Shown here: positions 12,147 to 32,802 of the stretch, piece by piece
How positions within the stretch are numbered: the stretch's first letter is position 1
Layout of the letters: each line of letters begins with the position of its first letter
Assembly: GCA_021513695.1 (NCBI GenBank)
Contig: CP084166.1
Coordinates: forward strand, 992,001 to 1,056,000
Direction of reading: 5' to 3'
Length of the DNA: 64,000 bases
From: Candidatus Heimdallarchaeum aukensis
Lineage (GTDB): Archaea; Asgardarchaeota; Heimdallarchaeia; Heimdallarchaeales; Heimdallarchaeaceae
Notes under the pieces: model-generated
What the model saw: only the letters and a program-made list of their open reading frames with translations
Told to the model about the DNA's origin: nothing
The model's database searches: none
Made by a program: the position numbers and the translations under genes

Positions 12147-14624
12147 ATGAAATTTACAAATCGGTTACAAGTACTGATTAATTCTGTAATAATTTTAAGT
12201 TTAATAACAGTAGGAATGGTTACATCTTCTGCAATTCAGATCAATTCAGAAGAGAATTCTTCTGTTAGAGAAACAATTACTGAGGATACAGTCTGGGAAG
12301 GTATAACAATCTACATTAATGAATCAATGCTTTTCAATGCCAAATTAACAATATCTAACTCAATTGTAATTTTTAAAGCAAATGCTACAAATGAGGTTAT
12401 TTTAGAAATAGGGGATACTTTAAACATAACTGACAGTCAAATATTAGCAGATGATCCTGATTACAACGGAAAAATCAAAAGTTTGCTCGGAGAAGAAATA
12501 ATTATAAGTAATTCTGAAATAAAGAATATAGATATTAGCGTCAATAGTGCAGAAGTGACTATAATTGACTCAGTTTTTGACAACTGCTATGAAGTAAAAT
12601 TCTTGACATTGCCAGAAACAAGTATTATAGCAAGAAACACTTTCAAGAATAATGAAACAGGATTATCACTTACTTACTCTCCAATAGAGTTAATAAATAA
12701 TACTTTCGAGAACTTAGATATAGGTGTATCAGTATCCTCTAGCGAAGGTATTTTGATTAAAGGAAATTCCTTTACCAACATTGCAGAAACTGCTATTTAC
12801 CAAACAAAACAGGGTGCAACAATAGAAAATAATGAGTTTACTGATGTTAATCGTGGAATAACCATTCAACAATCCAAAGCTGTATTAATTAAAGAAAATA
12901 CTTTTGAAAAATCTTATACAGCTATCATGACTCTAGACTCAAGCTATGTTACTATATCTACAAACAGTTTCGCAAACAATGAATTTAGTATTGACATGTC
13001 TGAAACTTATTATTCTGAAGTTTCAGATAACACAATAGAAAACACAACTGAAATAGCAATGCAAATACTAGAGTCAGATTATGTTGATATTCTAAATAAT
13101 GAGATAACTAATAGTTCAATTGGAATAAAATTAAATGAAAATAGAGCTTCTGCAATTCAATATAACACAATTACAGATGCTTTACTTTCCATTGATATCG
13201 AACATTCAAGATCCATCGATGTGATAGCAAATACAATTATAAACTCTGAAACAGCAATGTATATCGAAGATTCAGACAAAGCAACTTTAACTGCAAATGA
13301 TATCTTGACTTCCAATATTGGTATATCCATTTGGTCTTCAACTTCTCCTGCATTATCAAGTAACAAAATACTTGATACTAATATAGGAACAGAGTTGATA
13401 CTTGTTTCAGAAGGGTTATTACTAGGAAATGAATTTACTAACTCTCAAATGGGTATTTATGTTGTAGATACCAGTGAAACAAAGGTTGTAGATGGAACAT
13501 TAGTTAATGTTGCAGATGGTATAAAAATAGTCGAAAGTCCTAATTTTGAAGTAAGTGGAAACACTTTTGAAGACATTTCTGGAGATGCAGTAATTTTTGA
13601 TGATAGCAATGACTCTGTTGTTTATCATAATAACTTTTACAATATTACTGGTAAATATGGTAGCATAATTGATTGTATTGTTAACTTTGAATACGAAGTT
13701 TCTAATGGAACAATTCACGGTAACTACTATGAAGGAGTAGACGAAACATCAGTCTATATTGACACAGTCACTTATGAAGGAAAAGAAATTGAAATCTATG
13801 ACAATCATCCATTGACAGAAAAATACACTGTTCCTCCAGCAATAAGTGTTGTAGAAAGAGATGTACAAGATCCTGATGACACAATGATCGTAAATGTCAC
13901 AGCACAAATCTATAAACCATCAGAACTTTCAATTTCAGCATACTTAGATTACATGTCAAACTTTGATGATGATTGGACATCAGTTGAAATGACAATTGTA
14001 TCTTCTGTTGGTCAAATATACATCTATCAATCTTCTATACCTAAATTAGACTACGGACTTGAAATAACCTACAGGATTAGAGTAGTTTATGAATCTGAGT
14101 CTACTATATCAAGCAATTATACATATGTTGTCGAATACTCTGATGAAACACCTATCATCATTAATAATCCAACAGTAGTCGTAAGAGCTGAAGGTTCAGA
14201 TAAATTTACTTACACAAGTGTATACTATGATCTATACTATATAGTTGTGCAAGTTAGAGTAAAGAATCAAACAGCTAATCTCGCAAAAATAGATGGAAGA
14301 GATTATGTCAATATCTCATGGACATTAATAACAAATGAAGGAAATGAAACACATGATAACATAATGTTCTACAACACCACTACAGGAGTGTTCGAACTAG
14401 AATTAGGAAAGTTTACAGCCAATTCTAACATTACTTATCGAATATATGCAGAAGACGAACTAGGTAATTCAAGATGGACATTAGAAACCTATGAAATACA
14501 CATCACCTCTGAAACTACTGAAGAAACAGGTTTCGATAGCGTTACATTAATAGGAATAACAGCAAGTTTATTCATAATTCAAACTATAGTTGTTATTCAA
14601 AGAAGAAAAAGACAAGAAAACTAA
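12147..14624 (+). CDS. Surface protein with right-handed parallel beta-helix (PbH1/NosD-like) repeats and a C-terminal membrane anchor
   Basis: N-terminal signal/anchor segment. There are more than 10 iterations of an approximately 22-aa I-x-x-N-x-F/I-x-x-x-x-x-G-I repeat (for example IKGNSFTNIAETAIY, IENNEFTDVNRGITI, IKENTFEKSYTAIMT). The C-terminus is TLIGITASLFIIQTIVVIQRRKRQEN. Confidence 0.7.
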   Translation: MKFTNRLQVLINSVIILSLITVGMVTSSAIQINSEENSSVRETITEDTVWEGITIYINESMLFNAKLTISNSIVIFKANATNEVILEIGDTLNITDSQILADDPDYNGKIKSLLGEEIIISNSEIKNIDISVNSAEVTIIDSVFDNCYEVKFLTLPETSIIARNTFKNNETGLSLTYSPIELINNTFENLDIGVSVSSSEGILIKGNSFTNIAETAIYQTKQGATIENNEFTDVNRGITIQQSKAVLIKENTFEKSYTAIMTLDSSYVTISTNSFANNEFSIDMSETYYSEVSDNTIENTTEIAMQILESDYVDILNNEITNSSIGIKLNENRASAIQYNTITDALLSIDIEHSRSIDVIANTIINSETAMYIEDSDKATLTANDILTSNIGISIWSSTSPALSSNKILDTNIGTELILVSEGLLLGNEFTNSQMGIYVVDTSETKVVDGTLVNVADGIKIVESPNFEVSGNTFEDISGDAVIFDDSNDSVVYHNNFYNITGKYGSIIDCIVNFEYEVSNGTIHGNYYEGVDETSVYIDTVTYEGKEIEIYDNHPLTEKYTVPPAISVVERDVQDPDDTMIVNVTAQIYKPSELSISAYLDYMSNFDDDWTSVEMTIVSSVGQIYIYQSSIPKLDYGLEITYRIRVVYESESTISSNYTYVVEYSDETPIIINNPTVVVRAEGSDKFTYTSVYYDLYYIVVQVRVKNQTANLAKIDGRDYVNISWTLITNEGNETHDNIMFYNTTTGVFELELGKFTANSNITYRIYAEDELGNSRWTLETYEIHITSETTEETGFDSVTLIGITASLFIIQTIVVIQRRKRQEN

Positions 14625-19613: not shown

Positions 19614-20699
19614 TTATCTCCAGTCAAAATAAACTGAACTAAACTTTTCTGGAATTTCGATATTGTTAAGTAAAATAATGTCGAAACTTAATTTCTTAGG
19701 GAAAAATACAAAGTTAGCTTTTTGTAAAGGCTTAGAGTTATAATACGGAATATAAGGAGATTGTAATCCAACCCATCCTTTTGCATTACTTGTTTCTGAT
19801 AAGTACAGACTTAAATCTTTTGCTTCTTGTATAGATAGGTTTTTTATGTGGATAATGTCGATCCAACCAAAGGGAATAGAATTCCCAAAACCTGCTAATT
19901 GAAATTCCCAAGCAAGCATGAATCCTTTAACTTCTTTATTTTTTTCATAAATAACACAATTAGTAATTGGTTGTTCTAGTAACCATTTAAAATCTTCAAA
20001 GTTTGGCTCTATAGATGCGTTAAAATCTTTAGTTAGATTAGTAATCAACTCAAATAAAATAGGGATATCATCTTTTCTAAATTTCCTAAGATTTGCTCTG
20101 TTTTTTATTTTCTTATTCTTTTCTTTCAATTTGAAAAAATATTTTTCGTAAAATTTTAGTTTAACAACTTTTGAAACCTTTTCTGAATTGAAAACCCTAA
20201 TGATGAACTTGTTAGTTTCATATGGACGAAAAACTTGAAAACTTTTTTCTCTAGCAACTGACAAAGCTGTATCAATTCCATGTTGTAGGTTTTTTGGGCT
20301 TAATTCCTAGAGAATTTAGGATAAAGAAAGAAACTTACAAATTTGCTATTCCTGCTTGGTTAGCTGTACATCACCAACATAGAAGAAAAGGTTTAGCAAA
20401 AATGATGGGCAAAAAGATGCTTGAGATTGCTCAACAGGAATCATTTGATGGAGGTCTTGCTTTATTTGAACCAGAACAACATCGTTTGTTTTCTTGTAAA
20501 CAGCTCTAACAAAATAGTTTTTCTTAACTGTTGGAGAACCAAAAATTAACTTTATAGTTTTACCAGAAAAAAGAATAGAAGCTCCTTCTTCAATAGCTGC
20601 AGGGTCAGATAAGAAAGATTCAGAGAGTAGATCAGCTATTTTATTGTATTCTTTTTCTTCCAGCGTATATTGTTCTATTAGATAATCCTCATTATTCAT
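19614..20699 (-). pseudogene. Two-domain GNAT-family acyltransferase gene interrupted by an internal 203-bp inversion
   Basis: The N-terminal part reads on the minus strand (20699 down to about 20483, MNNEDYLIEQY...KKTNDV). The middle part reads on the PLUS strand (20280-20482) and contains the acetyl-CoA motif HQHRRKGLAKMMG. The C-terminal part reads on the minus strand again (20279 down to 19614). See the inversion finding. Confidence 0.7.
20280..20482. other. Inverted DNA segment bounded by the 7-bp inverted repeat atgttgt / acaacat
   Basis: atgttgt sits at 20280-20286 and acaacat at 20476-20482. Reverse-complementing 20280-20482 joins all three GNAT pieces in frame at both junctions (...KKTNDVVGFLGLIPREF... 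and ...LFEPEQHGIDTALSVAREK...). Confidence 0.75.
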
Positions 20700-20854
20700 C
20701 TGTTTCAAAAACTTGAAGTTGTTTTTATTTTTTTCTCGATTTAAGAAAAAAGAGAAGTCAAAGATTTTTACAATTGAACAGTAATAGTCTAAGTTCGACA
20801 ATAATAGTCTATATCCGATAGTAATAATAAACACTTTATTAATACAACGATAAA

Positions 20855-21361
20855 TTGAAAAGTTTTATATTTGTGTGTTATTTTATTAAAGTGGCAAAGA
20901 AAAATAAAGGAAGAAGAAAAGTGATTGAGTCAGTCTATATTATTTCCCGAACAGGATTACCTTTACTTTATGTAGATTTTGTTTCACAAGAAGATGATGT
21001 AGATGCCGTAACTTTATTTTCTGGAATAATTTCAGCGATACAAGTAGCAATGGCTGAAATTGATGTAGGTGTTCCGTCATTCTTTGATACAGAAAAAAAT
21101 GAAATCTTCATGAATGTAACAGAAAAATTTGCTATTGCTGTAGTAAAAAACCAAGAACCAATAGATAGAAATGAAATGAATAAACTAATGGATCAAATTC
21201 AAACCCTAGTATCATTTGATCAAGAAGTGGAAGATTTTAGTACCATTAGTGATGAAACAAAAAATAAAATTTCCAAAAAAATAAGGGAAATAGTTAATAA
21301 CTGGGAAGACTATATTAGCGAGAGAGAAGCAACAAAAAGAATAACGGAATCATTATGGTAA
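20855..21361 (+). CDS. Roadblock/LC7- or longin-like small protein
   Basis: VIESVYIISRTGLPLLYVDF...TLFSGIISAIQVAMAEI...EIFMNVTEKFAIAVVKNQ follows the alpha-beta-beta-alpha-beta-beta-beta pattern typical of roadblock/MglB-type domains. The probable start is GTG 20891, about 25 nt after a TATA-like ttttatattt. Confidence 0.45.
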   Translation: MKSFIFVCYFIKVAKKNKGRRKVIESVYIISRTGLPLLYVDFVSQEDDVDAVTLFSGIISAIQVAMAEIDVGVPSFFDTEKNEIFMNVTEKFAIAVVKNQEPIDRNEMNKLMDQIQTLVSFDQEVEDFSTISDETKNKISKKIREIVNNWEDYISEREATKRITESLW

Positions 21362-21378
21362 AAAGGTGAAAAATACAA

Positions 21379-22122
21379 ATGGTTGTCTGGCAAAATAAAA
21401 TTCCAATAAGTTCTATAATCTTTGAACTAGTGGTTGTTATTGCGCTAACTTTTATGGTAATAACAATTTTTGCAAGGTATTTTGCAAAAAGAAAAAAACC
21501 TGTGTTATATCTGGCTTTAGCATACCTGTTTTACGATCTTGCAACTTTAACAAGCTGTATCGGTCGGTGGTTAGGTTATTTCTCTTCAATTCCCTATACC
21601 GAGTTCTCATATACTGACTTTACAACCTTATTTGCATATGTGCTAATGGCTATAGCGAACGTATTTATTGCTGCATTTATTGACACAATATTTATTCAAA
21701 AAGGAGTAGATTTTGTCGCATTCTTTGCTATATTGAGCGGAATAATAATAGGTATGATAGTCCCTATACTGAATTTTGAATGGGGAAACATGAGATCACA
21801 TGTCTTAATAGTATCTTACCATTTAATACTTTCAATATTAATATTTCTAATACTAGCAATTGTGTCTTTAAGAGAAGCTAAAATGAATAAAAAGAAAATA
21901 GCAAAAATAGGTTTCGCTCTAATTGGAACCTATGCTATATTCATGATTCTATTATTTGTTTCATTTACATCAGATTCACTGCTTATAACTTATGTAGACG
22001 CATTTTCAAAGGGATACTCTCCTGCATATTACTTTGGATGGACACTTTTAGTTATAGGATCAATAATAGGTTATCTTGGACTAATTATGCCTAAATGGTT
22101 CGTAAAGATGCTTAAGTTATAA
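21379..22122 (+). CDS. Seven-transmembrane protein, unknown function
   Basis: Seven hydrophobic helices can be counted in 247 aa. It starts 17 nt downstream of the roadblock-like gene. Confidence 0.55.
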   Translation: MVVWQNKIPISSIIFELVVVIALTFMVITIFARYFAKRKKPVLYLALAYLFYDLATLTSCIGRWLGYFSSIPYTEFSYTDFTTLFAYVLMAIANVFIAAFIDTIFIQKGVDFVAFFAILSGIIIGMIVPILNFEWGNMRSHVLIVSYHLILSILIFLILAIVSLREAKMNKKKIAKIGFALIGTYAIFMILLFVSFTSDSLLITYVDAFSKGYSPAYYFGWTLLVIGSIIGYLGLIMPKWFVKMLKL

Positions 22123-22593
22123 TTAAATTAAATAAAATATAAAATCACTTTTTTCTTTTTTTTTAATATTACTTCATTATTCATGAGTTGAAATTTTACT
22201 TAATTTCTTCAGGACTCTACCCAACCAGTCAACAAACATATCGAAAGTTGTGAGGACTGGGTTAAGAGAACATGAAAGACACAGTCTTAATTAAGTTCTC
22301 TAGGGGGTTCATCTCCTGATTCCGGGCACTCATCACTCCCACAGGGAAGACCGGGTGTCGTAGGAATGAAACCTACGTCTTTAAGCATCTAGCTCAAGAC
22401 ACTATATAAATGATAATTGATTATATAAAGACAGCTGAAAAGTCTTGACACTCCCCCATATCGTGTAATCTTTCTAATAACTCCACAAACTAAAAATTTA
22501 GTTCTTTACGTAAAAAAGTATTTCATCTATATTTGTGTTAAGCAAAAATGGTTGATGAAACATATTCTTTATAAAAGTTAATGTGAAAGATAA

Positions 22594-23313
22594 ATGCGTA
22601 ATGTGGGTTTTATGAACAAATCATCCGTGAAAAGAAATTTAATGATTGTAAGAGAACAGGATGTTGTTGTTACTGGCGGTGTGGTTTTTATTGGAGATGG
22701 ACATACTGGCAAAACGCATACAGCTCTTAATCTTGTAAGAAATAAGGATAGATATAAGAAAACAGACTTGATCTCGAAGTCAATAAATGTAGAATTTGAC
22801 TATTTTGTTTATCAATCTAATTACCAACAGTATAAATTTACAATAAGTGCACAATTGTTTATATTTCCCGGGCAAAAAGGACGAGCGAAAAAAGGAGAAG
22901 GGTTAGCATTTGAGGATGCTCTAGACCTGTATTTTGATGTTAGAACGGTGAAAGAGGTTATTGTTCTAATACTAACTTTCAATCTTACAGATATAGCTAC
23001 ATTTCAAAACTTAGAATATTGGGTTAAAACAGCTATAGAGAATAATTTAGTCTCAGAAGCAACTAACATAATTTTGTTAGGTACTCACTACGATAAGAAA
23101 TCAAACATTGCTGTGAATGAAACAGATATTATACATGGAAAAAAATTTGTTCAAGAACAAATTGCTAATGAATTGAATATTGATTTTCCTCTGAAACAGA
23201 TCACTGAAGTGAATATATCAAATTTGACAGAAGAAGGTATCGAAAATTTAATTGGAGCGATTATAGACGCTTTTTTCAACGTTTTTAATATAGATGAGTT
23301 TAATTTAATTTAG
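22594..23313 (+). CDS. Ras-superfamily small GTPase (divergent)
   Basis: G1 GDGHTGKT, G3-like FIFPGQKG (DxxGQ variant) and G4-like LLGTHYDKK (NKxD variant). A TATA-like ctttataaaa lies about 25 nt upstream. Confidence 0.65.
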   Translation: MRNVGFMNKSSVKRNLMIVREQDVVVTGGVVFIGDGHTGKTHTALNLVRNKDRYKKTDLISKSINVEFDYFVYQSNYQQYKFTISAQLFIFPGQKGRAKKGEGLAFEDALDLYFDVRTVKEVIVLILTFNLTDIATFQNLEYWVKTAIENNLVSEATNIILLGTHYDKKSNIAVNETDIIHGKKFVQEQIANELNIDFPLKQITEVNISNLTEEGIENLIGAIIDAFFNVFNIDEFNLI

Positions 23314-23334
23314 AAATAAAAAAGGTAAAAAGAA

Positions 23335-26300
23335 ATGAAGTTTCAAAAGCATATAATAATCACAATAAATTTTTTATTAATTTTACAGTCATTGTTATAT
23401 ATTCAAAATATTAGCAATTCACAAAAAGATAGACAGAATATTACTCAGATTATCCCAGGAAACATTGAAAACAATCAACAAGAGAGTATTTATCATTCAG
23501 ATGTTTCCTCAACAAATGTACATACAACTCTTACTCAAGGAACAAACAAAACTTTTGGTTTCTTTACGCAAGATAGCTATGTAAATTTAGATTCTGATGG
23601 AAATGTGTTTCAATGGGAAAAGTATGATGTTGTAAAAGATACAGGTGATAATAGTGTTTATGCTGATTTTGCAATGGATTACTCTTATTCTTATACTTGG
23701 CCAAGTTCTCCTAATAGCTATGTTCCATTAATTGATATTGAAACAGGAACACAACTAGCTTCAACCTTTAGTCCTCCTTTTTCAGAGACTACTTATCTAT
23801 CAGGAAAAGTTTACTTCTTAACATATATTTCCACTTATGTATCAAGTTTTACCATTACTTTAACTCTCAGAATTCGATTGTGGTTATATAATCCTAATGA
23901 TGGAGGACTTACAGAAATTTTAACTATCGAATCTGTTCTTCCCGATAATTCTGATTTAACACAACGTGTTTATTCTTCAACTTTAGAAGATAAAGTTACC
24001 ATCCCCTCAGGTTATAGATTAAAAGTAACTTATGAAGCAAAAACGAGCAGAATAGATAGAGCTGCTTATGTTCATCTTGAAACTGGAGAATATTCAGATG
24101 GTGACCAAGTTAACTGGCAGATAAATGACGCAGAGTATTCTAACACTTATACTTTAAATGACGTTACTTCAGCTCTAGGTGTACAGTTGTATATGTATGA
24201 TGAAACATATCCTACTATTTCAATTTCTGGAGCAGAAAACAATACGATTTATTACGATACTAATGAAATAACAATCAGTACATCTGGAGCAGTAAGTAAT
24301 TCCTACAAATGGGACAGTAATTCATATACTGCTTTTGATCCTCCTGTGAATACAACTCTCCCTTCATCAACAGGTTGGCATTATTTGTATATTCAAGCAC
24401 TAGATGAATATGATAACAAAAATGAAGTAGTATACAAAATAGGCTATGAAAGTTCTAGCATAGTTTTACATAATGCAAACAATAATTCTTTAGTTCCAAA
24501 TAATTTTCTTCTTAACTTTAGTTTGTCTGGATACGATTCAGCGCAATATGCTTGGGATAGTGGAGGAAATTATACTTTTTCTGATCCTTATGACATTTCA
24601 GTACCAGATTTCTCAGGAGAGCACACACTCTATATTTATACAGTAAGCAGCTTTGGAGAAAATAAAACTGTTTATGTTTTTGAAGTTGATAACAGCCCGC
24701 CCTTAATCTCCTTAAGAGACTTAAGCAACGATACTACACAACCTACAAACAAGAAAATTGAACTGAATATTACAGATCAAACTTCAACTATTGAAGTTCT
24801 ATATAATTGGGATAATGTTGCTAATTCAACCTGGAGCCCATTAGAAGGAACAATCTACCAAACTTTTGCTCCAGATACTGATGGTTTTCATTGGCTCAAT
24901 GTATATGCAAACGATAGTTTTGGTCATATTATTGATGTACATTACAGATTTAATATTAGTTCAGACTATTTGCTGGTAGAATTAAGAACAATGATAAATG
25001 ACAGTTATTATTACGGAGGAAACACAGTTGAGGTTACGATTACAGGTACAAATGGGACAATAAAGTATCAGTGGGACTCAAATGGATTCAAAGATGGGGT
25101 AACAGTTGATTCAATCTTGTCTTTATCAGGTTCAGAATCATTACCGAAAGACCTTGGAGTGCATTATCTTACAATAATAGTTGGAGATGTAGATGACAAT
25201 CCCAAATCAACTTTGTTTAAATTTACAATTGACCAAGAAAATCCTGTAGTTTCTAATTTTGGAAATTACAATAATTCAAGATTACACAGTTCCACAATAA
25301 TTGATCTTGAAATAACAGATAATTTTACTTTAAGTAGTGAAATAGAAGCATGGGTATCAATAGATGGAGGAGGAAATATATCTTTTACGTATCCCTATGA
25401 TATTAAAATATCTTCTTTAGAAGATGGAGTTCATAATATTACTGTTTTTGCCTTTGATATTGCGCGAAATAATGTTTCTTGCTTAATAATTTTTGAAATT
25501 GATACGACAGCTCCAGAAATAGATATTGTTTCCATTCAAGGGTTAGAAGTTTCTTCTAGCGGTGTTTCATATATTCCCGGAAATGCAGCAATTGAATGCT
25601 CTTTTGTTGATGCAGACCCCGAAATTTATCACTTTTATTCATGGAATAACTCAGCTTTTACACTATTTGCTGGAAATACTTTTAATTTACCTGATACTGA
25701 TGGAAACGCAACCCTACGCATTTTAGCTAATGATACATTAGGAAATGAGAAAATTTTAACATTAGATCTTTTTATAGACACTACTCCTCCTCAATTGTCT
25801 ATACTGTTTCCTAATAACTACTCTAAAATCAATGAAGCGACACCTTTATTGTTTTTTGCTAATGATAGTGCAAGTGACACCATTTCTTCAATTTCTGCAA
25901 AATGGGACCAATTTCTAGAAGGAAAAATAGACCTTTCTCCACCTTATTTTACAATTTATTTATCAAGTCTTAAAAAACTCTATGAAGAGTTATCAGTTGC
26001 AGAGTTATATATTGATGCAAAAGATATTCTAGGAAATAATTTTACGTATATTTATTCATTTAATCTTGATTTTTCTCCGCCTTCCTACAATTTAGTAGGT
26101 GCCCAAAATAATACTTTTGTAAGAAGTGATACAATCCTTCAATTTGAAAATTTAAGTAATGACTTAATGAAGTTCGTTTATTATTGGGATTCTAATGATA
26201 TATCTATCTTAGATGATCCGTGGACTATATCAATACCAAATAATGATGGGGTACATAATCTTACAGTAATTCTTTACGATAACACAGGTGAGGGATATTA

Positions 26301-27942
26301 CCCAAATTGGGTTAAATCATTTTACACTTTTGTTGTTGATGATATTGGGATTGAAATTACTAGTCCGTCAAGTTTTTCCAATAATACAGAAGTTGGAATT
26401 GTATATAAACAATCATTTACCTTTTCTGTTGATGTCTACGATACAGCAGACAATCAAATTATAGATAATCTTAATTTTGTAATTTTAAACAATACACTGA
26501 ATCTAGAAATAGAGAATGAAACCTTAGATGGAAAAACATATACGATAACCATTCATGGTACAAATGTTGGATCAACAAGATTAATTTTTCAGTTTTCTAA
26601 GGGAAATTCGAATAAACATCAAATTGTTGTTCCTCTTACGATTGAAAAGAAAGAAGGAACAGTTTCATTGTTAGGGACAAGCGTCTTAAGCGTGATATAT
26701 GAAGAAAATTTCACTATAATACTGAATTTAGAGGATGAAAACTCTAATCTTTTAAATATTACCCGGGTGACTGTTAATGGTAGTTTAGTGAGCGATTTTA
26801 TCTATTTAGATGAATATCATGCTATACAATTTAATTATTCTTCAAGAGAAACAATAGGAAAAGGAGAATATAATCTGTTAGTTAATATTGAATCTAATTA
26901 TTACTATGGAGAAAAAATAATTGGCATTGAGGTTAAACCTATCCCTATTATTCTAAGTTTATCAGTCTCAAGTTATACTGTAATTGAAGGTTCTCAAGTT
27001 GCAATTACAGGAACTCTTACTTTTACAAATGGGACTCCGATACCTTCTATAACTCTATACTTTTCTATATATATAGTCTATAAGAATCAGTCCAATAATA
27101 ATGTCATGGCTCTGCCTTCAGAATACGGAAGTAAGGTTGTTTTCTCAGGATTAACTAATTCCTCTGGACAAGTAACGATTGCTTTTGAAATGACTTCAGA
27201 GATAGATTATATTTCAGTTGATTGTTCTTTTGGAGGGAGTAATATCTTTGACACAGTTTACTATGAAATGGAGGAATATATTTATTCTATACCTACTCCA
27301 AAACTTCCAACTTGGATATTATACACAATAATTGGTGGAAGTATTATATTGGCAGCAATAATCTCCTTTGTTGTTTATAAGCTTACTAGACCTAAACCAT
27401 TTGATGAGATATTAAATTCAATTTCTGATAATGATATCGTGATGAACATGACCCGTATCTGCCCTGGTGTTGTTCTATCAATCTTTGATCAACGCAAAGG
27501 TGCAATTCCATTAGTGTCTGATCATTCATTGGATTATAGTTACAGTGGAAGAATTAGGATAGGGCTTGAAAACTTTATGTTGAAAATTTCAGATCAAGCT
27601 TACTCTTCATTGGGCTTTGAAGAGCACCATTCTGGGCGTAGAACAGGAACAATTACTCTACCAAATGAAGGACTTGTAGGTTTTATTCATGGGATACAAT
27701 TGGAAAATAAAGCTGCGAGAGGAGGTTTTGAAAACCTTTCACTTATTGTGCTTGTAGAAAATGAGTACGGGACAATGTTACTTAGTTATCAAGAATACCT
27801 GTATCCCTTAATTGATGAGTTAATTTCCATGCTAAAAAATAAGAAACCGTTGGAGGATATTGAAGAACAATTATCGAATATACGTAGTCAAGCAACAAAA
27901 ACAGTTTTAGCTTCATTAGAATATGAAAATGCAATGTCTTAA
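23335..27942 (+). CDS. Giant (1535 aa) surface protein: repeat-rich ectodomain, single TM helix, cytoplasmic roadblock/longin-like tail
   Basis: N-terminal signal/anchor. At least 7 copies of an approximately 100-aa module with consensus Y-x-WD-S/N ... P-x-x-DG-x-H-x-L-x-V-x-A-x-D-x-x-GN ... F-x-I/V-D. TM helix WILYTIIGGSIILAAIISFVVYKL (about nt 27310-27385). The roughly 200-aa tail is CPGVVLSIFDQRKGAIPLVSD...LVGFIHGIQLEN...LSLIVLVENEYG. Confidence 0.7.
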   Translation: MKFQKHIIITINFLLILQSLLYIQNISNSQKDRQNITQIIPGNIENNQQESIYHSDVSSTNVHTTLTQGTNKTFGFFTQDSYVNLDSDGNVFQWEKYDVVKDTGDNSVYADFAMDYSYSYTWPSSPNSYVPLIDIETGTQLASTFSPPFSETTYLSGKVYFLTYISTYVSSFTITLTLRIRLWLYNPNDGGLTEILTIESVLPDNSDLTQRVYSSTLEDKVTIPSGYRLKVTYEAKTSRIDRAAYVHLETGEYSDGDQVNWQINDAEYSNTYTLNDVTSALGVQLYMYDETYPTISISGAENNTIYYDTNEITISTSGAVSNSYKWDSNSYTAFDPPVNTTLPSSTGWHYLYIQALDEYDNKNEVVYKIGYESSSIVLHNANNNSLVPNNFLLNFSLSGYDSAQYAWDSGGNYTFSDPYDISVPDFSGEHTLYIYTVSSFGENKTVYVFEVDNSPPLISLRDLSNDTTQPTNKKIELNITDQTSTIEVLYNWDNVANSTWSPLEGTIYQTFAPDTDGFHWLNVYANDSFGHIIDVHYRFNISSDYLLVELRTMINDSYYYGGNTVEVTITGTNGTIKYQWDSNGFKDGVTVDSILSLSGSESLPKDLGVHYLTIIVGDVDDNPKSTLFKFTIDQENPVVSNFGNYNNSRLHSSTIIDLEITDNFTLSSEIEAWVSIDGGGNISFTYPYDIKISSLEDGVHNITVFAFDIARNNVSCLIIFEIDTTAPEIDIVSIQGLEVSSSGVSYIPGNAAIECSFVDADPEIYHFYSWNNSAFTLFAGNTFNLPDTDGNATLRILANDTLGNEKILTLDLFIDTTPPQLSILFPNNYSKINEATPLLFFANDSASDTISSISAKWDQFLEGKIDLSPPYFTIYLSSLKKLYEELSVAELYIDAKDILGNNFTYIYSFNLDFSPPSYNLVGAQNNTFVRSDTILQFENLSNDLMKFVYYWDSNDISILDDPWTISIPNNDGVHNLTVILYDNTGEGYYPNWVKSFYTFVVDDIGIEITSPSSFSNNTEVGIVYKQSFTFSVDVYDTADNQIIDNLNFVILNNTLNLEIENETLDGKTYTITIHGTNVGSTRLIFQFSKGNSNKHQIVVPLTIEKKEGTVSLLGTSVLSVIYEENFTIILNLEDENSNLLNITRVTVNGSLVSDFIYLDEYHAIQFNYSSRETIGKGEYNLLVNIESNYYYGEKIIGIEVKPIPIILSLSVSSYTVIEGSQVAITGTLTFTNGTPIPSITLYFSIYIVYKNQSNNNVMALPSEYGSKVVFSGLTNSSGQVTIAFEMTSEIDYISVDCSFGGSNIFDTVYYEMEEYIYSIPTPKLPTWILYTIIGGSIILAAIISFVVYKLTRPKPFDEILNSISDNDIVMNMTRICPGVVLSIFDQRKGAIPLVSDHSLDYSYSGRIRIGLENFMLKISDQAYSSLGFEEHHSGRRTGTITLPNEGLVGFIHGIQLENKAARGGFENLSLIVLVENEYGTMLLSYQEYLYPLIDELISMLKNKKPLEDIEEQLSNIRSQATKTVLASLEYENAMS

Positions 27943-27989
27943 CAAATTTTTTATAGAAAAATAAAACTAATGCTTTTTTTATTTTTTAT

Positions 27990-29462
27990 TTGCACCTAGG
28001 AAAATGTTATTTATTGTTAACGAACTATTGGTATAATAGGAGAAGCAATATGTCTTATCTTTTAGATGAGTTAAAGAGGAAAAAACAAGCTGAAACCGAC
28101 GAAACCATTGATAAAATACTTCTAATGGGACTTCAAGAAGCTGGAAAAACAGCTATTAAAGATGTTGTTTTTTTTGATAAAGATCCTGAAGAAGTTGTAG
28201 AATATATGGCAACAACTCATTATCAAAGACAAATCATTGGAGACAAAAAAAAGAATTTACTTATCGATTCAGGAGGACAAGAAACTTACTGGAACGAAGC
28301 AGTAACATATTTTCGCTACTTGATTTTTTCTAATGCTAAAATCCTTATTTGGGTGGTAGATTTAACTCATCCTGAACTTTTTGATGAATCAGAAAGAAGA
28401 TTTAGCTTCACAATTAGACAATTTAAGAAAGAGAACAAAGATGGAAAGGTCTATGTTTTTTGTCATAAAGCTGATGTTGTTGAACCAGAAAAACTAGATG
28501 CAGTAGTTGAGCATGTAAAAGAACTGTTATCTGATCCCAAATTTGAGATTGAATTTAAAATTACATCAATATTCAAAAAAAATGAGTTAAAGCAAATAAT
28601 GAATAAAATTCTCGAAGAATCTTCAATTGATCAAGAACAAATAGAACTTGTCACTGATGTTGAAAAGAAAATTGAAGAAAGCCCTGAATTTGTTAAATTT
28701 CTAGAAGAACATAAAGCAGATCCACGAGTTAAAGAACTCATGGAATATATTAAACCTCAACCAAAACAATATTTACCTTCATTTGGGAAAGTAGAAGTAG
28801 ATGTGAACCTTGAAAATTATGGTATTATTGAAATCATTATACTTGATAAAGAAACATTGAAGCCAGCAATAGGAGCTTCATCACATATCATCTCTAATAA
28901 AAAACAATCATTTGAATATATTCTGGCTCTTAATTATTTTAAAAACTTAATAAAATCAAAAGAACAGAAAATTGAAGCTCTTGGAAGTACCTTTAGTTAT
29001 CCTGAAGGTGAAGTTCATGCATTGATTTTTAATTTGAAGAATAGTTACATTATAATTACCTCATTTAATGAAATAGATGAAAACATAAAAAAGGAATTAT
29101 ACAAATTTATTCTCAAATTTTCAGATGAAATGGTAAAAGAAAAATCACTCGTTAAAGAAGAAAGCATTTCTAAACCCCCTAGTATAGCAACTGAACAAAG
29201 CGTTGAAATAGAACAATCAATAGCCCAAGAAGTGAAAAAAGATGAAAAGAAGGTTTTTGCAGAAGAAGTTTCTTCAACGCAAAAAGAAACTTTAGTCAAA
29301 GAAGATGAAGAACAAAAACAAATGATAAAACAAGTCTCCTCTGAAAAAGCTAAATTAGAAGAAAAGAAAAATGGAGTAGGTTTAGATATTACAGAGAGAG
29401 ACATAACTAAAATAGCTAAATTTCTATATGATCAGCTGGATAAAGAAAAAAAAGAAGAGTGA
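27990..29462 (+). CDS. Rag/Gtr1-like GTPase with roadblock-like middle domain and charged tail
   Basis: The probable start is ATG 28050 (MSYLLDEL). G1 LLMGLQEAGKTAI, G3 LIDSGGQETY and G4 FCHKADV (the HKxD variant seen in Rag/Gtr1). It continues with IIEIIILDKETLKPAIGASS...GEVHALIFNLKNSYIIITSF, then a K/E-rich C-terminus. Confidence 0.7.
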   Translation: MHLGKCYLLLTNYWYNRRSNMSYLLDELKRKKQAETDETIDKILLMGLQEAGKTAIKDVVFFDKDPEEVVEYMATTHYQRQIIGDKKKNLLIDSGGQETYWNEAVTYFRYLIFSNAKILIWVVDLTHPELFDESERRFSFTIRQFKKENKDGKVYVFCHKADVVEPEKLDAVVEHVKELLSDPKFEIEFKITSIFKKNELKQIMNKILEESSIDQEQIELVTDVEKKIEESPEFVKFLEEHKADPRVKELMEYIKPQPKQYLPSFGKVEVDVNLENYGIIEIIILDKETLKPAIGASSHIISNKKQSFEYILALNYFKNLIKSKEQKIEALGSTFSYPEGEVHALIFNLKNSYIIITSFNEIDENIKKELYKFILKFSDEMVKEKSLVKEESISKPPSIATEQSVEIEQSIAQEVKKDEKKVFAEEVSSTQKETLVKEDEEQKQMIKQVSSEKAKLEEKKNGVGLDITERDITKIAKFLYDQLDKEKKEE

Positions 29463-30686
29463 TTAAACTGGTCTACTTTTTCCAATACTTCTGTATTCAC
29501 AGTTATTGTCAAGAAGAATTGGAATCTCTCTCATTTCAGTTATACATTCATGAATTGGGTATAATTCTATAGTTGTAGTACCAAATCCTTTCTTAATTTG
29601 AATTGCATGCTCAAAATTATCAGCATTCTCTAAAGCTACCTCTAATATTGATTTATGTAATTCTCTTCCACAAATGTCACATTTAAAGTAAATTTGCTTA
29701 TTGATCTTGGTTTCTAATTGTTCTTTGTTTAATATGTTATGAGATTCGAAAAAGGTAATCAATTTATCTTTAACCTTTATTTTAGCAACAGAGATGACTT
29801 CTTCTGTTTTGAACATTTTTCTCATTTGATCACAAATTTCATGAAAAGTAGAAATCTGCTGATTTAACTGTTCTTGCGAAGAAAAAACTGAAGTAATGAC
29901 AAGGTCTTCTTCGATTTCTCTAATAAATATCCTTGAGTCACTCAAAGAAAAGACAATATAATTCAAATCAAGACTAGGTGAGTAGATCTTAACTAGTTCA
30001 GAGCGTAATCTGGAAAGATTGAGATTAACTTCTTTTTCTGGTTCAGAGTATAAAACCAAACCTTTGGAAGTTGATAGGGTTAGAAGATTTAGATTATATT
30101 CTGATACTATCTCTTGAATGTTAGAAGCTTTTGTTAGGTCTCTAGGATAAACAACAGAAAAAATTCTTTGCATTGCATCCCATATATTCTCTTCAAAGAT
30201 AGAAGTTTCATAGATTTCAGAATTGGGATACTTGCTCAACTCAAAAATATCTTTAATTGAACGTGTAATAGCAGCCCTTTTGTCAACAGGAACAACATCC
30301 ATTTTATGGGCGAAAACATAGATTCTAGCGCTAGAACCAATTTTTTTAAGATTATCCAAAGTAAGATCAAAATAATATTTAGAACGCATGATGTTAGAAG
30401 CATCAGAAATATCAACAACATAAATCAAAGCTTTAAGGTCACTAAAAGTTCTTTCAGTATATTTCTCAAAAAGCTCATTTAAATAAGAAGATTGACCTCC
30501 TACATCAACAAGATTAATAGAACTTCCTGCAAAATTGAAAAGCTTACGATTAATTCGAACTGTAGCAGGATTAAGAGAAGTTGCTTGAGGAGCAAAGCCT
30601 TCAAAAACAACTTGACGAATAGAAGTTTTACCAGATTGAGATAACCCCAGAATAACAATTTTTGATTGAAGTGAACGATCATTCAT
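29463..30686 (-). CDS. Rag/Gtr1-like GTPase with roadblock-like domain and C-terminal Cys/His cluster
   Basis: G1 ILGLSQSGKTSI, G3 LVDVGGQSSY, G4 FAHKMDVV. The middle part is LLTLSTSKGLVLYSEPE...IVFSLSDSRIFIREIEEDLVITSVF. The C-terminus carries CDICGRELHK...HEC. Its stop abuts the stop of the convergent GTPase gene (29462/29463). Confidence 0.75.
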   Translation of the reverse strand: MNDRSLQSKIVILGLSQSGKTSIRQVVFEGFAPQATSLNPATVRINRKLFNFAGSSINLVDVGGQSSYLNELFEKYTERTFSDLKALIYVVDISDASNIMRSKYYFDLTLDNLKKIGSSARIYVFAHKMDVVPVDKRAAITRSIKDIFELSKYPNSEIYETSIFEENIWDAMQRIFSVVYPRDLTKASNIQEIVSEYNLNLLTLSTSKGLVLYSEPEKEVNLNLSRLRSELVKIYSPSLDLNYIVFSLSDSRIFIREIEEDLVITSVFSSQEQLNQQISTFHEICDQMRKMFKTEEVISVAKIKVKDKLITFFESHNILNKEQLETKINKQIYFKCDICGRELHKSILEVALENADNFEHAIQIKKGFGTTTIELYPIHECITEMREIPILLDNNCEYRSIGKSRPV

Positions 30687-31344: not shown

Positions 31345-32802
31345 CTACTGGGACTGCAACCAATGGCTGAGCCCTAGGCAAACAGTGAAATGGGTAGAAC
31401 TGTATCTTTGACCAGTGAGGTAATCAGTGATAGTGTTTCCTTGAGGACTGAAAAGAGCACCAAGGAACTTACGAGCGATATTCATTGCTCCTGTGAGGTC
31501 AGAGTGGAAAGTGTAATTGCAAGAAGAACAATGAACTAAACCTCTTACTGGACGGACAACTTTCCTTCCACAACGAGCACAGTGAGAAGATGTCCCTTTT
31601 TCCTCTATCGTTAATATTCGGTGAGGGTCAAAACCTCTTAATATTAGTGCCCGACGGAGAAGAGTAAGAACAAGGTAAAAATTCCACTGATGAAGTTTCC
31701 TGCGAAACTTACGAGTACTTTTACCTTTCTCTTTTCCTTTCTCCTCGCGAACATGTTTAGGGTAACCTACAACGACGAAAAGGTCATACATTCGCGCATA
31801 GGTCTCTATCGTCTGCACAACCTCACTTACAAATTGGTAAATATAGGCTCGTTTAACGTTTCTATATCTTCTTCGAAGAAGACTAAGAAAACGATAAACT
31901 TGATGTTTTTTACCCGACTGGTCGTTTAAAGCTGCTTTTCTCTGAAGACGGGAAAGTTTGACTTTATATCGATGGTTGACTCTATTCCACTGTTTGGTAT
32001 GCCAGAATTTTATCTCCTTACTTGTTAATTTCTTTTTAGGGGTTAGTAACACTCCTGCAGCAGGAATGTTTATCCCTAGATCTATTCCCAGCACAGCTGG
32101 GGGGAGAGAAGAAGAATTCTCTTCTTTAGGAGGATAAAAAGAAGAAGGAAGAACTCTTAGTTGGAAATACACCCACCATTCATGTGTAGAACGTTTATAT
32201 CTTAGTTCTAAACTTTTCACCCTCCCTTTTTTTAACTCTTTCTGGTGGAAAGTGCTCATCTCTAAAGGTAACCATAACTTCTGATGATAGGAGGTGTTTC
32301 TTCTCCACGTATCTAACGAGTCTCTTATCCCCACCCACCAACGAGTGAGAGTGTTATTCTTCTCTTTAGGTAAATGGACGAGAACGAACCTCTTTGCATT
32401 AATTAGTTGTCTTCTCACTCTCTTTATTGGAGGACGAGTAGAACTGGGTTTATAACCTTGTTCGTATAATTGCACAGCTATATCTCTACATTCTTGAAAT
32501 TCGTTGTGGGAACAATAAGGGAACATTTTCTTCAGGTCGTGAGGAACAGTCTTTCTTCTCTCTTCTTCTTTAACTTTTGAAGTCGTTAGCGTCAATTCAT
32601 CTAGTTTTCCTCTATGAACTCTTATTTTCCCTTTTTTAGTTTTAGCACATATTTTTCTTCTGTTGTGATGAATTATTCTCACATACTTCTCTATTATCCT
32701 CGTGTCTCTCCCCGTTATTCTCCTTAACCTTTCCTTTTTCCTCGTCGTCAACACCTCATTCTTTATTCTCACTTTCAAGGTTTTGACGACGTCCTCCACC
32801 AT
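31345..32802 (-). CDS. tnpB: TnpB (OrfB) RNA-guided endonuclease-like protein
   Basis: RuvC-I LGIDLGINIPAAG, RuvC-II Glu in TIEEKGTSSHC, zinc finger CARCG...CSSCN and RuvC-III HSDLTGAMNIA. The ORF is 485 aa and uninterrupted. Confidence 0.85.
   Translation of the reverse strand: MVEDVVKTLKVRIKNEVLTTRKKERLRRITGRDTRIIEKYVRIIHHNRRKICAKTKKGKIRVHRGKLDELTLTTSKVKEEERRKTVPHDLKKMFPYCSHNEFQECRDIAVQLYEQGYKPSSTRPPIKRVRRQLINAKRFVLVHLPKEKNNTLTRWWVGIRDSLDTWRRNTSYHQKLWLPLEMSTFHQKELKKGRVKSLELRYKRSTHEWWVYFQLRVLPSSFYPPKEENSSSLPPAVLGIDLGINIPAAGVLLTPKKKLTSKEIKFWHTKQWNRVNHRYKVKLSRLQRKAALNDQSGKKHQVYRFLSLLRRRYRNVKRAYIYQFVSEVVQTIETYARMYDLFVVVGYPKHVREEKGKEKGKSTRKFRRKLHQWNFYLVLTLLRRALILRGFDPHRILTIEEKGTSSHCARCGRKVVRPVRGLVHCSSCNYTFHSDLTGAMNIARKFLGALFSPQGNTITDYLTGQRYSSTHFTVCLGLSHWLQSQ

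What the first reader, a model, noticed from the sequence alone, without database searches (positions are those of the whole stretch)
20855..30686. Eukaryote-like GTPase module: three small GTPases, four roadblock/longin-like domains, a 7-TM protein and a giant surface protein in one 10-kb cluster
Seen:
- One Ras-like GTPase (GDGHTGKT / FPGQ / THYD).
- Two Rag/Gtr1-like GTPases (GxxxxGKT, DxGGQ, HKxD), each followed by a roadblock-like domain.
- A stand-alone roadblock/longin-like 168-aa protein followed 17 nt later by a 7-helix membrane protein.
- A 1535-aa surface protein whose cytoplasmic tail again looks roadblock-like.

Established: in eukaryotes, Rag GTPases act as dimers through C-terminal roadblock domains on a roadblock-protein scaffold (Ragulator). 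MglA/MglB pairs are the prokaryotic analogue. Expanded small-GTPase families are a hallmark of Asgard archaea.

Inference: the cluster could be a transmembrane signalling unit in which an extracellular sensor or adhesin and a 7-TM protein recruit or regulate Rag-like GTPases through roadblock-roadblock contacts.
Basis: partly seen in the sequence, partly recalled or inferred. Interest (0 to 1): 0.6.

Follow-up and report, generated by a model that had tools for sequence, protein, structure and literature searches.

The report
Folliculin-like membrane protein beside Rag GTPases
In the archaeon Candidatus Heimdallarchaeum aukensis, a giant cell-surface protein whose cytoplasmic tail has the fold and signature motifs of the catalytic domain of the human Rag regulators folliculin/GATOR1 is conserved next to two Rag-like GTPases, which points to an archaeal forerunner of the eukaryotic nutrient-sensing switch; the neighbouring 7-TM gene pair is a separate unit.

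Summary
All six ORFs are real. The window is Ca. Heimdallarchaeum aukensis (K9W45_04170 to about 04195), and all six are unannotated. The 10-kb "cluster" is two independent conserved units.

Unit A (20921-22122) is a small roadblock/longin-superfamily protein plus a 7-TM protein. The pair recurs in 11 of 12 other loci, but it lies beside the GTPases only in this lineage.

Unit B (22594-30686) has four genes: a divergent Ras-like GTPase, a 1535-aa type-I glycoprotein, and two Rag/Gtr-family GTPases. The tail-Rag adjacency recurs in 28 species-level Heimdallarchaeota genomes, and the whole block wherever contigs reach far enough.

One Rag-like protein has a verified roadblock C-terminal domain plus a CCHC zinc module. 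The other's C-terminal fold is unverified.

Best reading: a membrane-anchored, folliculin-type longin regulator, probably a GAP, of a Rag-like pair. Heimdallarchaeial GAP-type longins were already reported in 2025, with their partner GTPase left open. This synteny and the receptor-like fusion address that question.

The parts
22594..23313 (+). Unit B gene 1: divergent Ras-superfamily small GTPase (239 aa; NCBI calls a 233-aa version, K9W45_04180). P-loop GDGHTGKT at aa 34, G3 'FPGQ' without the usual Asp at aa 91, G4 'THYD' at aa 164.
   Evidence: Pfam Ras 27.6 bits (cutoff 21.6). Weak PDB matches to Sec4/Cdc42/Ran, E 0.006-0.03. Motif conservation in 18 orthologs. Present upstream of the giant gene in 16 of 16 Rag-linked loci with enough upstream sequence.
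23335..27942 (+). Unit B gene 2: 1535-aa type-I membrane glycoprotein (K9W45_04185; UniProt name 'Ig-like domain-containing protein'). Signal/anchor aa 1-26, repeat-rich ectodomain aa 27-1323, TM aa 1324-1351, cytoplasmic tail aa 1352-1535.
   Evidence: Hydropathy. 39 sequons against 23 +/- 4 expected, and at least 5 'YxWD...GxHxL' repeats. Ectodomain orthologs at 31-41% identity in 40+ loci, in 1-3 tandem copies. Database names.
27304..27387 (+). Single transmembrane helix of the giant protein (LPTWILYTIIGGSIILAAIISFVVYKLT), followed by a basic juxtamembrane stretch.
   Evidence: Kyte-Doolittle 2.38; coordinates checked.
27388..27939 (+). Cytoplasmic folliculin/NPRL2-type longin domain (184 aa).
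27484..27510 (+). 'GP' motif region FDQRKGAIP at the b1-b2 turn (family consensus FDQxKGPIP; Gly invariant; Pro in 43 of 49 copies, Ala here).
   Evidence: The motif is defined for GAP-type longins in PMC12290439.
27718..27735 (+). RGGFEN: candidate arginine finger (Arg1462, which is tail residue R111) in the b4-b5 loop. RGGxEN is invariant in all 49 copies, including the Hodarchaeota copies at about 25% identity.
   Evidence: Aligns with FLCN Arg164 (LARGF) in hhalign and pairwise alignments that are not significant on their own.
28050..29462 (+). Unit B gene 3: long Rag/Gtr-family GTPase (470 aa; the ORF opens at 27990; K9W45_04190). G domain, helical linker, conserved a/b C-terminal domain (aa 257-361, nt 28818-29132), variable acidic low-complexity region, and a short conserved C-terminal motif (nt 29379-29459).
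   Evidence: Pfam Gtr1_RagA 84.3 bits. PDB: RagA/Gtr1 E 2e-11, RagC 4e-9. Family motifs. Starts 97-149 nt after the tail in 27 of 39 loci. Fold of the C-terminal domain not verified.
29463..30686 (-). Unit B gene 4: Rag/Gtr-family GTPase (407 aa), convergent, with stop codons abutting. G domain aa 1-180, roadblock domain aa 183-290 (nt 29817-30140), long helix, CCHC beta-domain aa 331-391 (nt 29514-29696).
20921..21361 (+). Unit A gene 1 (separate unit): 146-aa roadblock/longin-superfamily protein (the ORF opens at 20855; K9W45_04170), with an invariant C-terminal Trp.
   Evidence: Family of 48 representative clusters. Below-threshold Fuz_longin_1 and Robl_LC7 hits in 12 of 33 members each, Sybindin in 10. 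PDB dynein roadblock E 0.0012.
21379..22122 (+). Unit A gene 2 (separate unit): 247-aa 7-TM membrane protein (K9W45_04175), predicted N-out/C-in, with no known family.
   Evidence: Seven family-conserved hydrophobic segments and positive-inside loops. A homolog at 30-92% identity immediately follows the p168 homolog in 11 of 12 loci. Pfam 7TMR-DISM only E 0.48.

Best explanation
Shown:
- Genes 22594-30686 form a four-gene module conserved across Heimdallarchaeota.
- The module has a Ras-like GTPase, a giant type-I surface glycoprotein and two paralogous Rag/Gtr-family GTPases.
- The surface protein's cytoplasmic tail is a folliculin/NPRL2-type longin domain.
- At least one of the Rag-like proteins has the Rag-type roadblock C-terminal domain.

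Inferred mechanism:
- The two Rag-like proteins pair up, as eukaryotic RagA/C and Gtr1/2 do.
- The membrane-anchored longin tail docks on a G domain and regulates its nucleotide state.
- Most likely the tail acts as a GTPase-activating protein. It would use the invariant Arg of the RGGxEN loop next to the GP motif, as FLCN Arg164, NPRL2 Arg78 and SMCR8 Arg147 do.
- All solved GAP-type longins act as longin dimers. Self-association of the giant protein, or pairing of tandem paralogs, would therefore assemble the active longin pair. Such association could be driven by what the ectodomain binds.
- That would couple events at the cell surface to the Rag-like switch.
- Direct membrane anchoring of the regulator would replace the eukaryotic Ragulator/lysosome scaffold.
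- The Ras-like GTPase is co-transcribed upstream, 21 nt away. It is a further component of unknown role.

The 168-aa longin/roadblock protein and the 7-TM protein are a separate two-gene unit.
For: Synteny:
- A p490-like gene starts 97-149 nt after the tail in 27 of 39 loci with enough sequence.
- A convergent p407-like gene is present in 14 of 23 loci, and a Ras-like gene upstream in 16 of 16 Rag-linked loci.
- The tail-Rag adjacency is found in 28 species-level genomes, at only 45-60% protein identity.
- One rearranged locus (L041) still keeps all four genes.
- In a decayed locus (L003/L004) the Ras-like and p407-like genes are fragmented and the ectodomain is lost, but the TM+tail and the p490-like gene stay intact.

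Fold:
- AF2 pLDDT 92.
- Folliculin (PF11704) is the only Pfam family hit recurrently, in 11 of 24 homologs.

Motifs:
- F[DE]QxxG[PA]xP and RGGxEN are invariant in all 49 copies, including those at about 25% identity.
- These are the two features that PMC12290439 uses to separate GAP longins from other longins.
- R111 aligns to FLCN R164.

Rag identity. A Rag-like pair predicted to heterodimerise has a precedent in MK-D1 (PMC10933270).
Against: - There is no direct evidence of any interaction or of GAP activity.
- Sequence similarity to FLCN is below threshold. Pfam gives 13.9 bits against a cutoff of 23.3, hhalign gives E 0.06, and alignments to NPRL2 are uninformative.
- The Arg register therefore rests on fold, loop position and conservation, not on a significant alignment or a superposition I could inspect.
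- About 11 'orphan' paralogs and the Hodarchaeota copies keep both motifs without adjacent Rag genes. The tail may therefore act in trans or on other GTPases.
- This window's copy has Gly-Ala rather than Gly-Pro.
- Eukaryotic GAP longins work as heterodimers and carry DENN domains, which are absent here.
- p490's C-terminal domain could not be shown to be a roadblock, so heterodimerisation is unproven.
- The Ras-like GTPase is linked just as tightly.
Confidence: 0.55

Rival explanations
1. The longin tail is a non-catalytic platform or an exchange factor. It would anchor the Rag-like GTPases at the membrane, like Ragulator/EGO, or activate them, like the longin GEFs Mon1-Ccz1, TRAPP and DENN. 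It would not stimulate hydrolysis.
Confidence: 0.25
2. The tail acts on the co-transcribed Ras-like GTPase (p239), or on an Arf-related GTPase encoded elsewhere, rather than on the Rag-like proteins. This would parallel C9orf72-SMCR8 acting on Arf/Rab.
Against: In the decayed locus the Ras-like gene is fragmented while the tail and the p490-like gene persist. Five of six orphan loci lack p239 too. The closest structural relatives (FLCN, Lst4/FNIP, NPRL2/3) are all components of Rag-specific GAP complexes. p239 has atypical G3 and G4 motifs.
Confidence: 0.12
3. One reading: all six genes form one signalling unit. The 7-TM protein, the 168-aa protein and the giant protein would recruit the Rag-like GTPases through roadblock-roadblock contacts.
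For: The genes are adjacent in this genome and in a near-identical strain (L048). p168 belongs to the roadblock/longin superfamily and p407 has a roadblock domain.
Against: p168 and p247 are absent from all 44 other fetched loci that carry a tail domain. The p168-p247 pair occurs without GTPases nearby in L046 and in the other loci that extend far enough. A 471-nt spacer with a T-tract and a strain-specific 345-nt insertion separates the two units. The tail is a longin, not a roadblock.
Confidence: 0.05
4. The gene order is historical accident without functional coupling. The giant protein would be an adhesin or S-layer-like protein whose tail has an unrelated role.
For: None of the genes has experimental data. 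Orphan copies exist without GTPases.
Against: Order, orientation and spacing are kept across 28 species-level genomes at about 50% identity, and are retained after a rearrangement. In eukaryotes the tail's fold family and the neighbouring GTPase family are cognate partners.
Confidence: 0.03

Closest known systems
Folliculin-FNIP (yeast Lst7-Lst4), the GAP for RagC/D (Gtr2)
   Different: There is no DENN domain. The longin is the cytoplasmic tail of a 1535-aa type-I surface glycoprotein rather than a soluble protein recruited to lysosomes. No distinct FNIP-like partner gene is present. Sequence similarity is below the Pfam threshold. No TOR pathway is known in archaea.
GATOR1 (NPRL2-NPRL3-DEPDC5) / yeast SEACIT, the GAP for RagA/B (Gtr1)
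   Different: There is no NPRL2-specific C-terminal domain and no DEPDC5. Sequence alignment to NPRL2 is uninformative.
Heimdallarchaeial 'FLCN/SMCR8-type' longin proteins noted in PMC12290439 (Traffic 2025)
   Same: They show the same class of fold, with a GP motif and an arginine finger, in Heimdallarchaeia. That paper proposes possible GAP activity.
   Different: That paper worked from deposited AlphaFold models and leaves the partner (ArfR or Rag/Gtr) explicitly open. Its main text never uses the word 'transmembrane', and a full-text search for it together with 'gene neighborhood' found no occurrence. Here the domain is shown fused to a giant membrane protein and syntenic with two Rag/Gtr genes. 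I could not check whether its 15 proteins include this family, because no supplement is held.
Ragulator-Rag / EGO complex
   Same: Rag-family GTPases with a roadblock C-terminal domain (p407) are brought to a membrane by a partner of the roadblock/longin superfamily.
   Different: There is no LAMTOR-like roadblock scaffold in the module. The anchor is a transmembrane protein and its domain is a GAP-type longin.
Rag-like GTPase pair of Prometheoarchaeum MK-D1 (PMC10933270)
   Same: Two adjacent Rag-like genes with roadblock fusions are predicted to heterodimerise like Gtr1/Gtr2.
   Different: That paper states that MK-D1 GTPase genes are generally not in operons with roadblock or longin genes. 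Here the pair is convergent and linked to a longin-bearing membrane protein. p407 adds a CCHC module, and p490 adds a long acidic region.
Asgard operon of LAMTOR1-like roadblock + Rab-like GTPase + DENN protein (Liu et al., bioRxiv 10.1101/2020.10.19.343400)
   Same: It is a conserved Asgard neighbourhood that links FLCN-related proteins to a small GTPase.
   Different: The authors stress that its GTPase is not of the Rag family. It has different genes, no membrane protein and no Rag pair.
MglA-MglB (bacterial Ras-like GTPase and roadblock GAP)
   Same: It is a prokaryotic pairing of a small GTPase with a GAP from the roadblock/longin superfamily.

Membership tests
Rag/Gtr GTPase family (p407, 29463-30686) | G domain matches Gtr1_RagA above the curated cutoff and has an HKxD G4 motif | tested here: met
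   112.8 bits against a cutoff of 22. AHKMD. Best PDB relatives are Gtr1 (E 1e-23) and RagA (1e-21).
Rag/Gtr GTPase family (p407) | C-terminal roadblock domain | tested here: met
Rag/Gtr GTPase family (p407 + p490) | Obligate dimer through the C-terminal domains | not testable with these tools
   No multimer prediction was available. Conserved pairing of the two genes (14 of 23 loci) is only indirect support.
Rag/Gtr GTPase family (p490, 28050-29462) | G domain matches Gtr1_RagA above the cutoff and has an HKxD motif | tested here: met
   84.3 bits. CHKAD, DSGGQE and GxxxxGKT are conserved in 23 orthologs.
Rag/Gtr GTPase family (p490) | C-terminal roadblock domain | tested here: inconclusive
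   A conserved 105-aa region has a bbabbba-like residue pattern. There was no significant hit to PDB, Pfam, the p407 CTD, the p168 family or the tail profiles.
FLCN/SMCR8/NPRL2-type GAP longin (tail, 27388-27939) | Longin fold closest to the GAP-complex longins | tested here: met
FLCN/SMCR8/NPRL2-type GAP longin (tail) | GP motif at the turn before strand 2 (PMC12290439) | tested here: met
   F[DE]QxxG[PA]xP: Gly is invariant in all 49 copies, with Pro in 43 and Ala in 6, including this window. It lies at the b1-b2 turn of the model.
FLCN/SMCR8/NPRL2-type GAP longin (tail) | Catalytic arginine finger in the equivalent loop | tested here: inconclusive
   An invariant Arg (RGGxEN) sits in the b4-b5 loop and aligns with FLCN Arg164. 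The alignments are not significant (E 0.06), and I had no superposition or coordinates to inspect.
FLCN/SMCR8/NPRL2-type GAP longin (tail) | Sequence membership in Pfam Folliculin (PF11704) | tested here: not met
   13.9 bits against a cutoff of 23.3 for the window protein. The best of 24 homologs has E 7e-4, and all are below the cutoff.
FLCN/SMCR8/NPRL2-type GAP longin (tail) | C-terminal DENN (FLCN, SMCR8) or NPRL2-type domain, and a second longin subunit | tested here: not met
   The tail ends after the longin helices (184 aa), with no DENN domain. No second longin gene lies in the module, although 1-3 tandem copies of the giant gene occur in some loci.
FLCN/SMCR8/NPRL2-type GAP longin (tail) | GAP activity toward a Rag, Arf or Rab GTPase | not testable with these tools
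   This needs biochemistry.
Roadblock/longin superfamily (p168, 20921-21361) | Match to roadblock or longin models | tested here: inconclusive
   Robl_LC7 scores 16.6 bits (cutoff 23). Across 33 family members, Fuz_longin_1 hits 12, Robl_LC7 12, Sybindin 10 and Intu_longin_1 6, all below cutoff. The family profile hits PDB dynein roadblock at E 0.0012. No structure was predicted.
Ras family (p239) | Pfam Ras above the cutoff, and canonical G1/G3/G4 motifs | tested here: inconclusive
   Ras scores 27.6 bits (cutoff 21.6), but the match covers only residues 120-219. The P-loop is present. G3 lacks the Asp (IxPGQ), and G4 is THxD/E instead of NKxD.
Known 7-TM receptor families (p247) | Seven TM helices, and a match to a described family | tested here: not met
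   Seven conserved helices are confirmed, but there is no family match: 7TMR-DISM_7TM E 0.48, NCBIfam nothing.

The most novel reading that the evidence does not exclude
The Rag-folliculin/GATOR axis began as a receptor-coupled GTPase switch at the archaeal cell membrane. A giant type-I surface protein would sense or bind something outside the cell. Its self-association would assemble a dimer of folliculin-type longin tails, and that dimer would act as the GAP for a Rag-like heterodimer. The outside of an archaeal cell is topologically equivalent to the lysosomal lumen. The eukaryotic lysosome-based Rag system would then be an internalised descendant of this arrangement. The module would also be the first prokaryotic case of a transmembrane receptor with a built-in small-GTPase GAP of the longin type.
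Probability: 0.25. Interest if true: 0.85.

Novelty: new variant of a known kind. Interest (0 to 1): 0.62.

Why it matters
How the eukaryotic Rag / folliculin / GATOR1 nutrient-signalling machinery arose is an open question. So is what the many Asgard small GTPases and longin/roadblock proteins actually do. Published work has not been able to pair Asgard GTPases with their regulators from genome layout. It explicitly asks which GTPase the heimdallarchaeial GAP-type longins act on (PMC10933270, PMC12290439).

This module offers a concrete, conserved and experimentally tractable answer. It names a specific longin domain, a specific candidate catalytic Arg (Arg1462), and two specific Rag-like proteins encoded next to it. 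It also introduces an unexpected architecture, with the regulator as the cytoplasmic tail of a huge glycosylated surface protein. That suggests outside-in control of a Rag-like switch in a cell without lysosomes or TOR.

Tried and rejected
- Profile of the tail family against PDB sequences: no hit even at E 10.
- hhalign of the tail family against NPRL2: it misaligns and is uninformative.
- p490 C-terminal domain against PDB, Pfam, the p407 family, the p168 family and the tail family: nothing significant.
- p168 family against the tail family: no relationship detectable.
- The idea that the long p168 relatives (P0106, P0120, P0147) are longin-DENN proteins: no Pfam or PDB sequence support.
- Supplementary sequences of the Traffic 2025 paper: none are held, so I could not check overlap with its 15 Asgard longins.
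- AFDB fold search: the library was not available.
- Metagenome scan with the full p168 alignment: too divergent for the tool. It was repeated with 8 close members.
- Rfam on the whole window: no hit. tRNA scan: none.
- Self-BLAST of the ectodomain: no repeats detected at that sensitivity. Repeats were seen only by motif.
- Look-up of the 156-aa NCBI version of p168: not on record.
- Searches for a paper behind PDB entries 8yqg, 8yl2 and 9m28: none in the library.
- The single-unit model was rejected on synteny.

Full report
**Identity of the window and of the ORFs**

Exact-sequence look-ups place four of them, and a 99%-identical match places a fifth, in the closed genome of Candidatus Heimdallarchaeum aukensis, locus tags K9W45_04170 to 04190. 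There they are 'hypothetical' or 'uncharacterized'. UniProt names the giant protein only 'Ig-like domain-containing protein'. The 64-kb window is about 30% GC.

Start-codon context and an independent gene call suggest two corrected starts. The 168-aa ORF probably starts at 20921 (146 aa), and the 490-aa ORF starts at 28050 (470 aa).

**The three GTPases**

The 407-aa and 470-aa proteins score 112.8 and 84.3 bits on Pfam Gtr1_RagA, against a cutoff of 22, and only 48 and 43 bits on Arf. Their best solved relatives by sequence are Gtr1/RagA, at E 1e-23 and 1e-21 for p407 and 2e-11 for p490. RagC/Gtr2 score lower for both, so neither can be assigned to the RagA or the RagC lineage. The P-loop, DxGGQ and HKxD are conserved in their ortholog families.

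The 239-aa protein passes the Pfam Ras cutoff (27.6 against 21.6), but only over its C-terminal half. It has a P-loop, but its G3 motif lacks the Asp (IxPGQ) and its G4 motif is THxD/E. Its PDB matches (Sec4, Cdc42, Ran) reach only E 0.006-0.03. It is a divergent Ras-superfamily protein.

**The four proposed roadblock/longin domains**

(2) p490. A conserved region of about 105 residues follows the G domain. This one is unverified. After it come a variable acidic low-complexity stretch and a short conserved C-terminal motif.

(3) p168. It belongs to a family of 48 representative clusters. Members hit Fuz/MON1 longin_1 (12 of 33), Robl_LC7 (12 of 33), Sybindin (10) and Intu longin (6), always below the curated cutoffs. 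The family profile hits dynein roadblock in the PDB at E 0.0012. Membership of the roadblock/longin superfamily is likely but not proven.

**Signature motifs of the tail**

I extracted 49 copies of the tail: the window's copy plus 48 from the fetched loci. Two elements never change:
- F[DE]QxxG[PA]xP at the b1-b2 turn.
- RGGxEN in the b4-b5 loop.

They hold even in two Hodarchaeota copies that are only about 25% identical overall. A neighbouring Arg pair (RR) does vary.

PMC12290439 defines exactly these two features as what distinguishes the GAP longins (FLCN, NPRL2, SMCR8, C9orf72) from other longins: a GP motif before strand 2 and a nearby arginine finger. That paper reports both in heimdallarchaeial longins taken from the AlphaFold database.

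I verified my recalled FLCN and NPRL2 sequences against the PDB. hhalign and a pairwise alignment both place the tail's invariant Arg (R111, which is Arg1462) on FLCN Arg164, aligning AARGGF with LARGF. These alignments are not significant on their own (E 0.06). The NPRL2 alignments are uninformative. The Arg-finger assignment is therefore well motivated but not proven.

**The giant protein as a whole**

It has an N-terminal signal or anchor and a 1297-aa ectodomain rich in Ser, Thr, Asn and Tyr. The ectodomain carries 39 N-x-S/T sequons, against 23 +/- 4 in shuffles, and at least five 'YxWD...GxHxL' repeats. One TM helix follows, with basic residues after it. Distant Hodarchaeota homologs hit bacterial Ig-like domain models. 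This is a type-I surface glycoprotein with the longin domain in the cytoplasm.

**Synteny: two units, not one**

Using the tail alignment I fetched 41 loci from species-representative genomes, plus loci from metagenome assemblies. I then located homologs of every window protein in them.
- A p490-like gene starts 97-149 nt after the tail in 27 of 39 loci with at least 500 nt downstream.
- A convergent p407-like gene follows in 14 of 23 loci with at least 4.5 kb downstream.
- A p239-like gene precedes the giant gene in 16 of 16 Rag-linked loci with enough upstream sequence.
- Among the species-representative genomes, 27 carry the tail followed by a p490-like gene, and a 28th (L041) is rearranged but keeps all four genes together. 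The full block is seen wherever the contigs extend far enough.
- Some loci carry two or three tandem giant genes.
- In L003/L004 the block is decaying. The Ras-like and p407-like genes are fragmented and the ectodomain is lost, yet TM+tail and the p490-like gene remain intact.
- About 11 'orphan' paralogs of the giant protein, with distinct tail sub-motifs, and the Hodarchaeota copies have no Rag gene nearby.

No locus contains a p168 or p247 homolog. Conversely, the p168 homolog is followed immediately by a p247 homolog (30-92% identity) in 11 of 12 loci that have downstream sequence. GTPases lie next to that pair only in a near-identical strain (L048). They do not in the next relative (L046, 61% identity), where the left flank is conserved but the right flank differs.

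The two units are separated by a 471-nt spacer that begins with a T-tract. It contains a 345-nt insertion that is absent from L048.

**Mechanism**

Shown: a conserved module joins a membrane-anchored folliculin-type longin with two Rag-family GTPases and a Ras-like GTPase.

Inferred: the Rag-like proteins pair up, and the tail regulates their nucleotide state at the membrane. The regulation is most likely GAP activity through Arg1462 and the GP turn. All solved GAP-type longins act as longin dimers, and 8yqg is itself deposited as a dimer. Self-association of the giant protein, or pairing of tandem paralogs, would therefore plausibly create the active unit. That gives a receptor-like, outside-in logic.

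The rival readings cannot be excluded without biochemistry or multimer modelling. They are a platform or GEF role, and action on the Ras-like GTPase.

**Comparison with the literature**

- Tran et al. 2024 (PMC10933270) describe Rag-like-roadblock fusions and one Rag-like pair in MK-D1. They state that GTPase genes are generally not in operons with roadblock or longin genes, which makes partners hard to predict.
- Liu et al. (bioRxiv 10.1101/2020.10.19.343400) describe FLCN-like and NPRL2-like Asgard proteins, and an operon of a LAMTOR1-like roadblock, a Rab-like GTPase and a DENN protein. They note that its GTPase is not a Rag.
- PMC12290439 reports GAP-type longins in Heimdallarchaeia and explicitly leaves open whether ArfR or Rag/Gtr GTPases are their partners. 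The word 'transmembrane' never occurs in its main text, and a full-text search found no occurrence of 'gene neighborhood' in it.
- The Arf-family preprint and the genome paper for this organism do not treat this locus.
- I found no paper for PDB entries 8yqg, 8yl2 or 9m28.

As far as the held library shows, two things are new: the fusion of this longin to a giant surface protein, and its conserved linkage to a Rag-like pair. The component families are known.

**Verdict**

The tail is a GAP-type longin. One of the roadblock calls is unverified. There are two independent units, not one.

I rate the finding a new variant of a known kind, with interest 0.62. It turns a stated open question into a directly testable one, using named residues and named proteins.

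Noticed in passing
window 22118-22463: There is a ~345-nt insertion in the p247-p239 spacer relative to the near-identical strain L048. It contains a 41%-GC segment (22195-22400; the window is 30% GC) that folds with z = -3.1 on the + strand. It has no Rfam hit and is unique within the window and the fetched loci. It may be a small mobile element or a non-coding RNA.
   Followed up: partly
window 19614-20834 (- strand): The 216-aa and 162-aa ORFs together match a single 281-aa acetyltransferase gene (NMT/Acetyltransf_9-like) in the related contig L046. The gene therefore appears split or frameshifted in this genome.
   Followed up: partly
window 31345-32802 (- strand): A TnpB/Cas12f-like RNA-guided nuclease gene (NCBIfam guided_TnpB 78 bits, below the cutoff of 100; Pfam Cas12f1-like TNB domain) flanks the GTPase module. 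It could relate to local rearrangement.
   Followed up: no
window 29514-29696 (- strand; p407 aa 331-391): A small beta-rich C-terminal domain with invariant Cys335, Cys338, His378 and Cys380 (a probable zinc site) is conserved in all 38 p407 orthologs and is absent from eukaryotic Rags. Its function is unknown.
   Followed up: partly
window 29379-29459 (p490 aa 444-470): A short conserved C-terminal motif ('...D....A.FL...') follows a length-variable acidic low-complexity region across p490 orthologs of 496-686 aa. It may be a docking peptide or an amphipathic helix.
   Followed up: no
proteins P0106, P0120 (about 350 aa) and P0147 (447 aa), relatives of p168: Some family members fuse the p168-like domain to an extra domain of about 200 aa. 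By eye it resembles a DENN core, which would make them FLCN-like longin-DENN proteins. Neither Pfam nor PDB sequence searches support this.
   Followed up: partly
window 21356-21358 (last codon of p168) and the family alignment A3: The p168 family ends in an invariant '...SLW', with the terminal Trp conserved in all 33 aligned members. This suggests a C-terminal docking motif, perhaps for the 7-TM partner, whose cytoplasmic loops are strongly basic.
   Followed up: no
L045 148-13522 (Hodarchaeota WORE3): Tandem giant proteins (1915 and 1536 aa, with Ig-like domain hits) carry very divergent longin tails that still keep FDQxxGPxP and RGGxEN. A 996-aa Ig-like protein follows. No GTPase gene lies in the ~6 kb held downstream, and only 147 nt upstream were fetched. 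The surface-protein-longin fusion is therefore broader than the Rag linkage.
   Followed up: partly
L011, L024, L027, L030: Two or three tandem copies of the giant gene, each with its own longin tail, precede a single Rag-like pair. This raises the possibility of heteromeric tail pairs.
   Followed up: no
window 12147-14624 (+): An 825-aa right-handed beta-helix / NosD-like protein, probably another surface protein, lies upstream together with HAD and CN-hydrolase genes. It has no evident link to the module.
   Followed up: no
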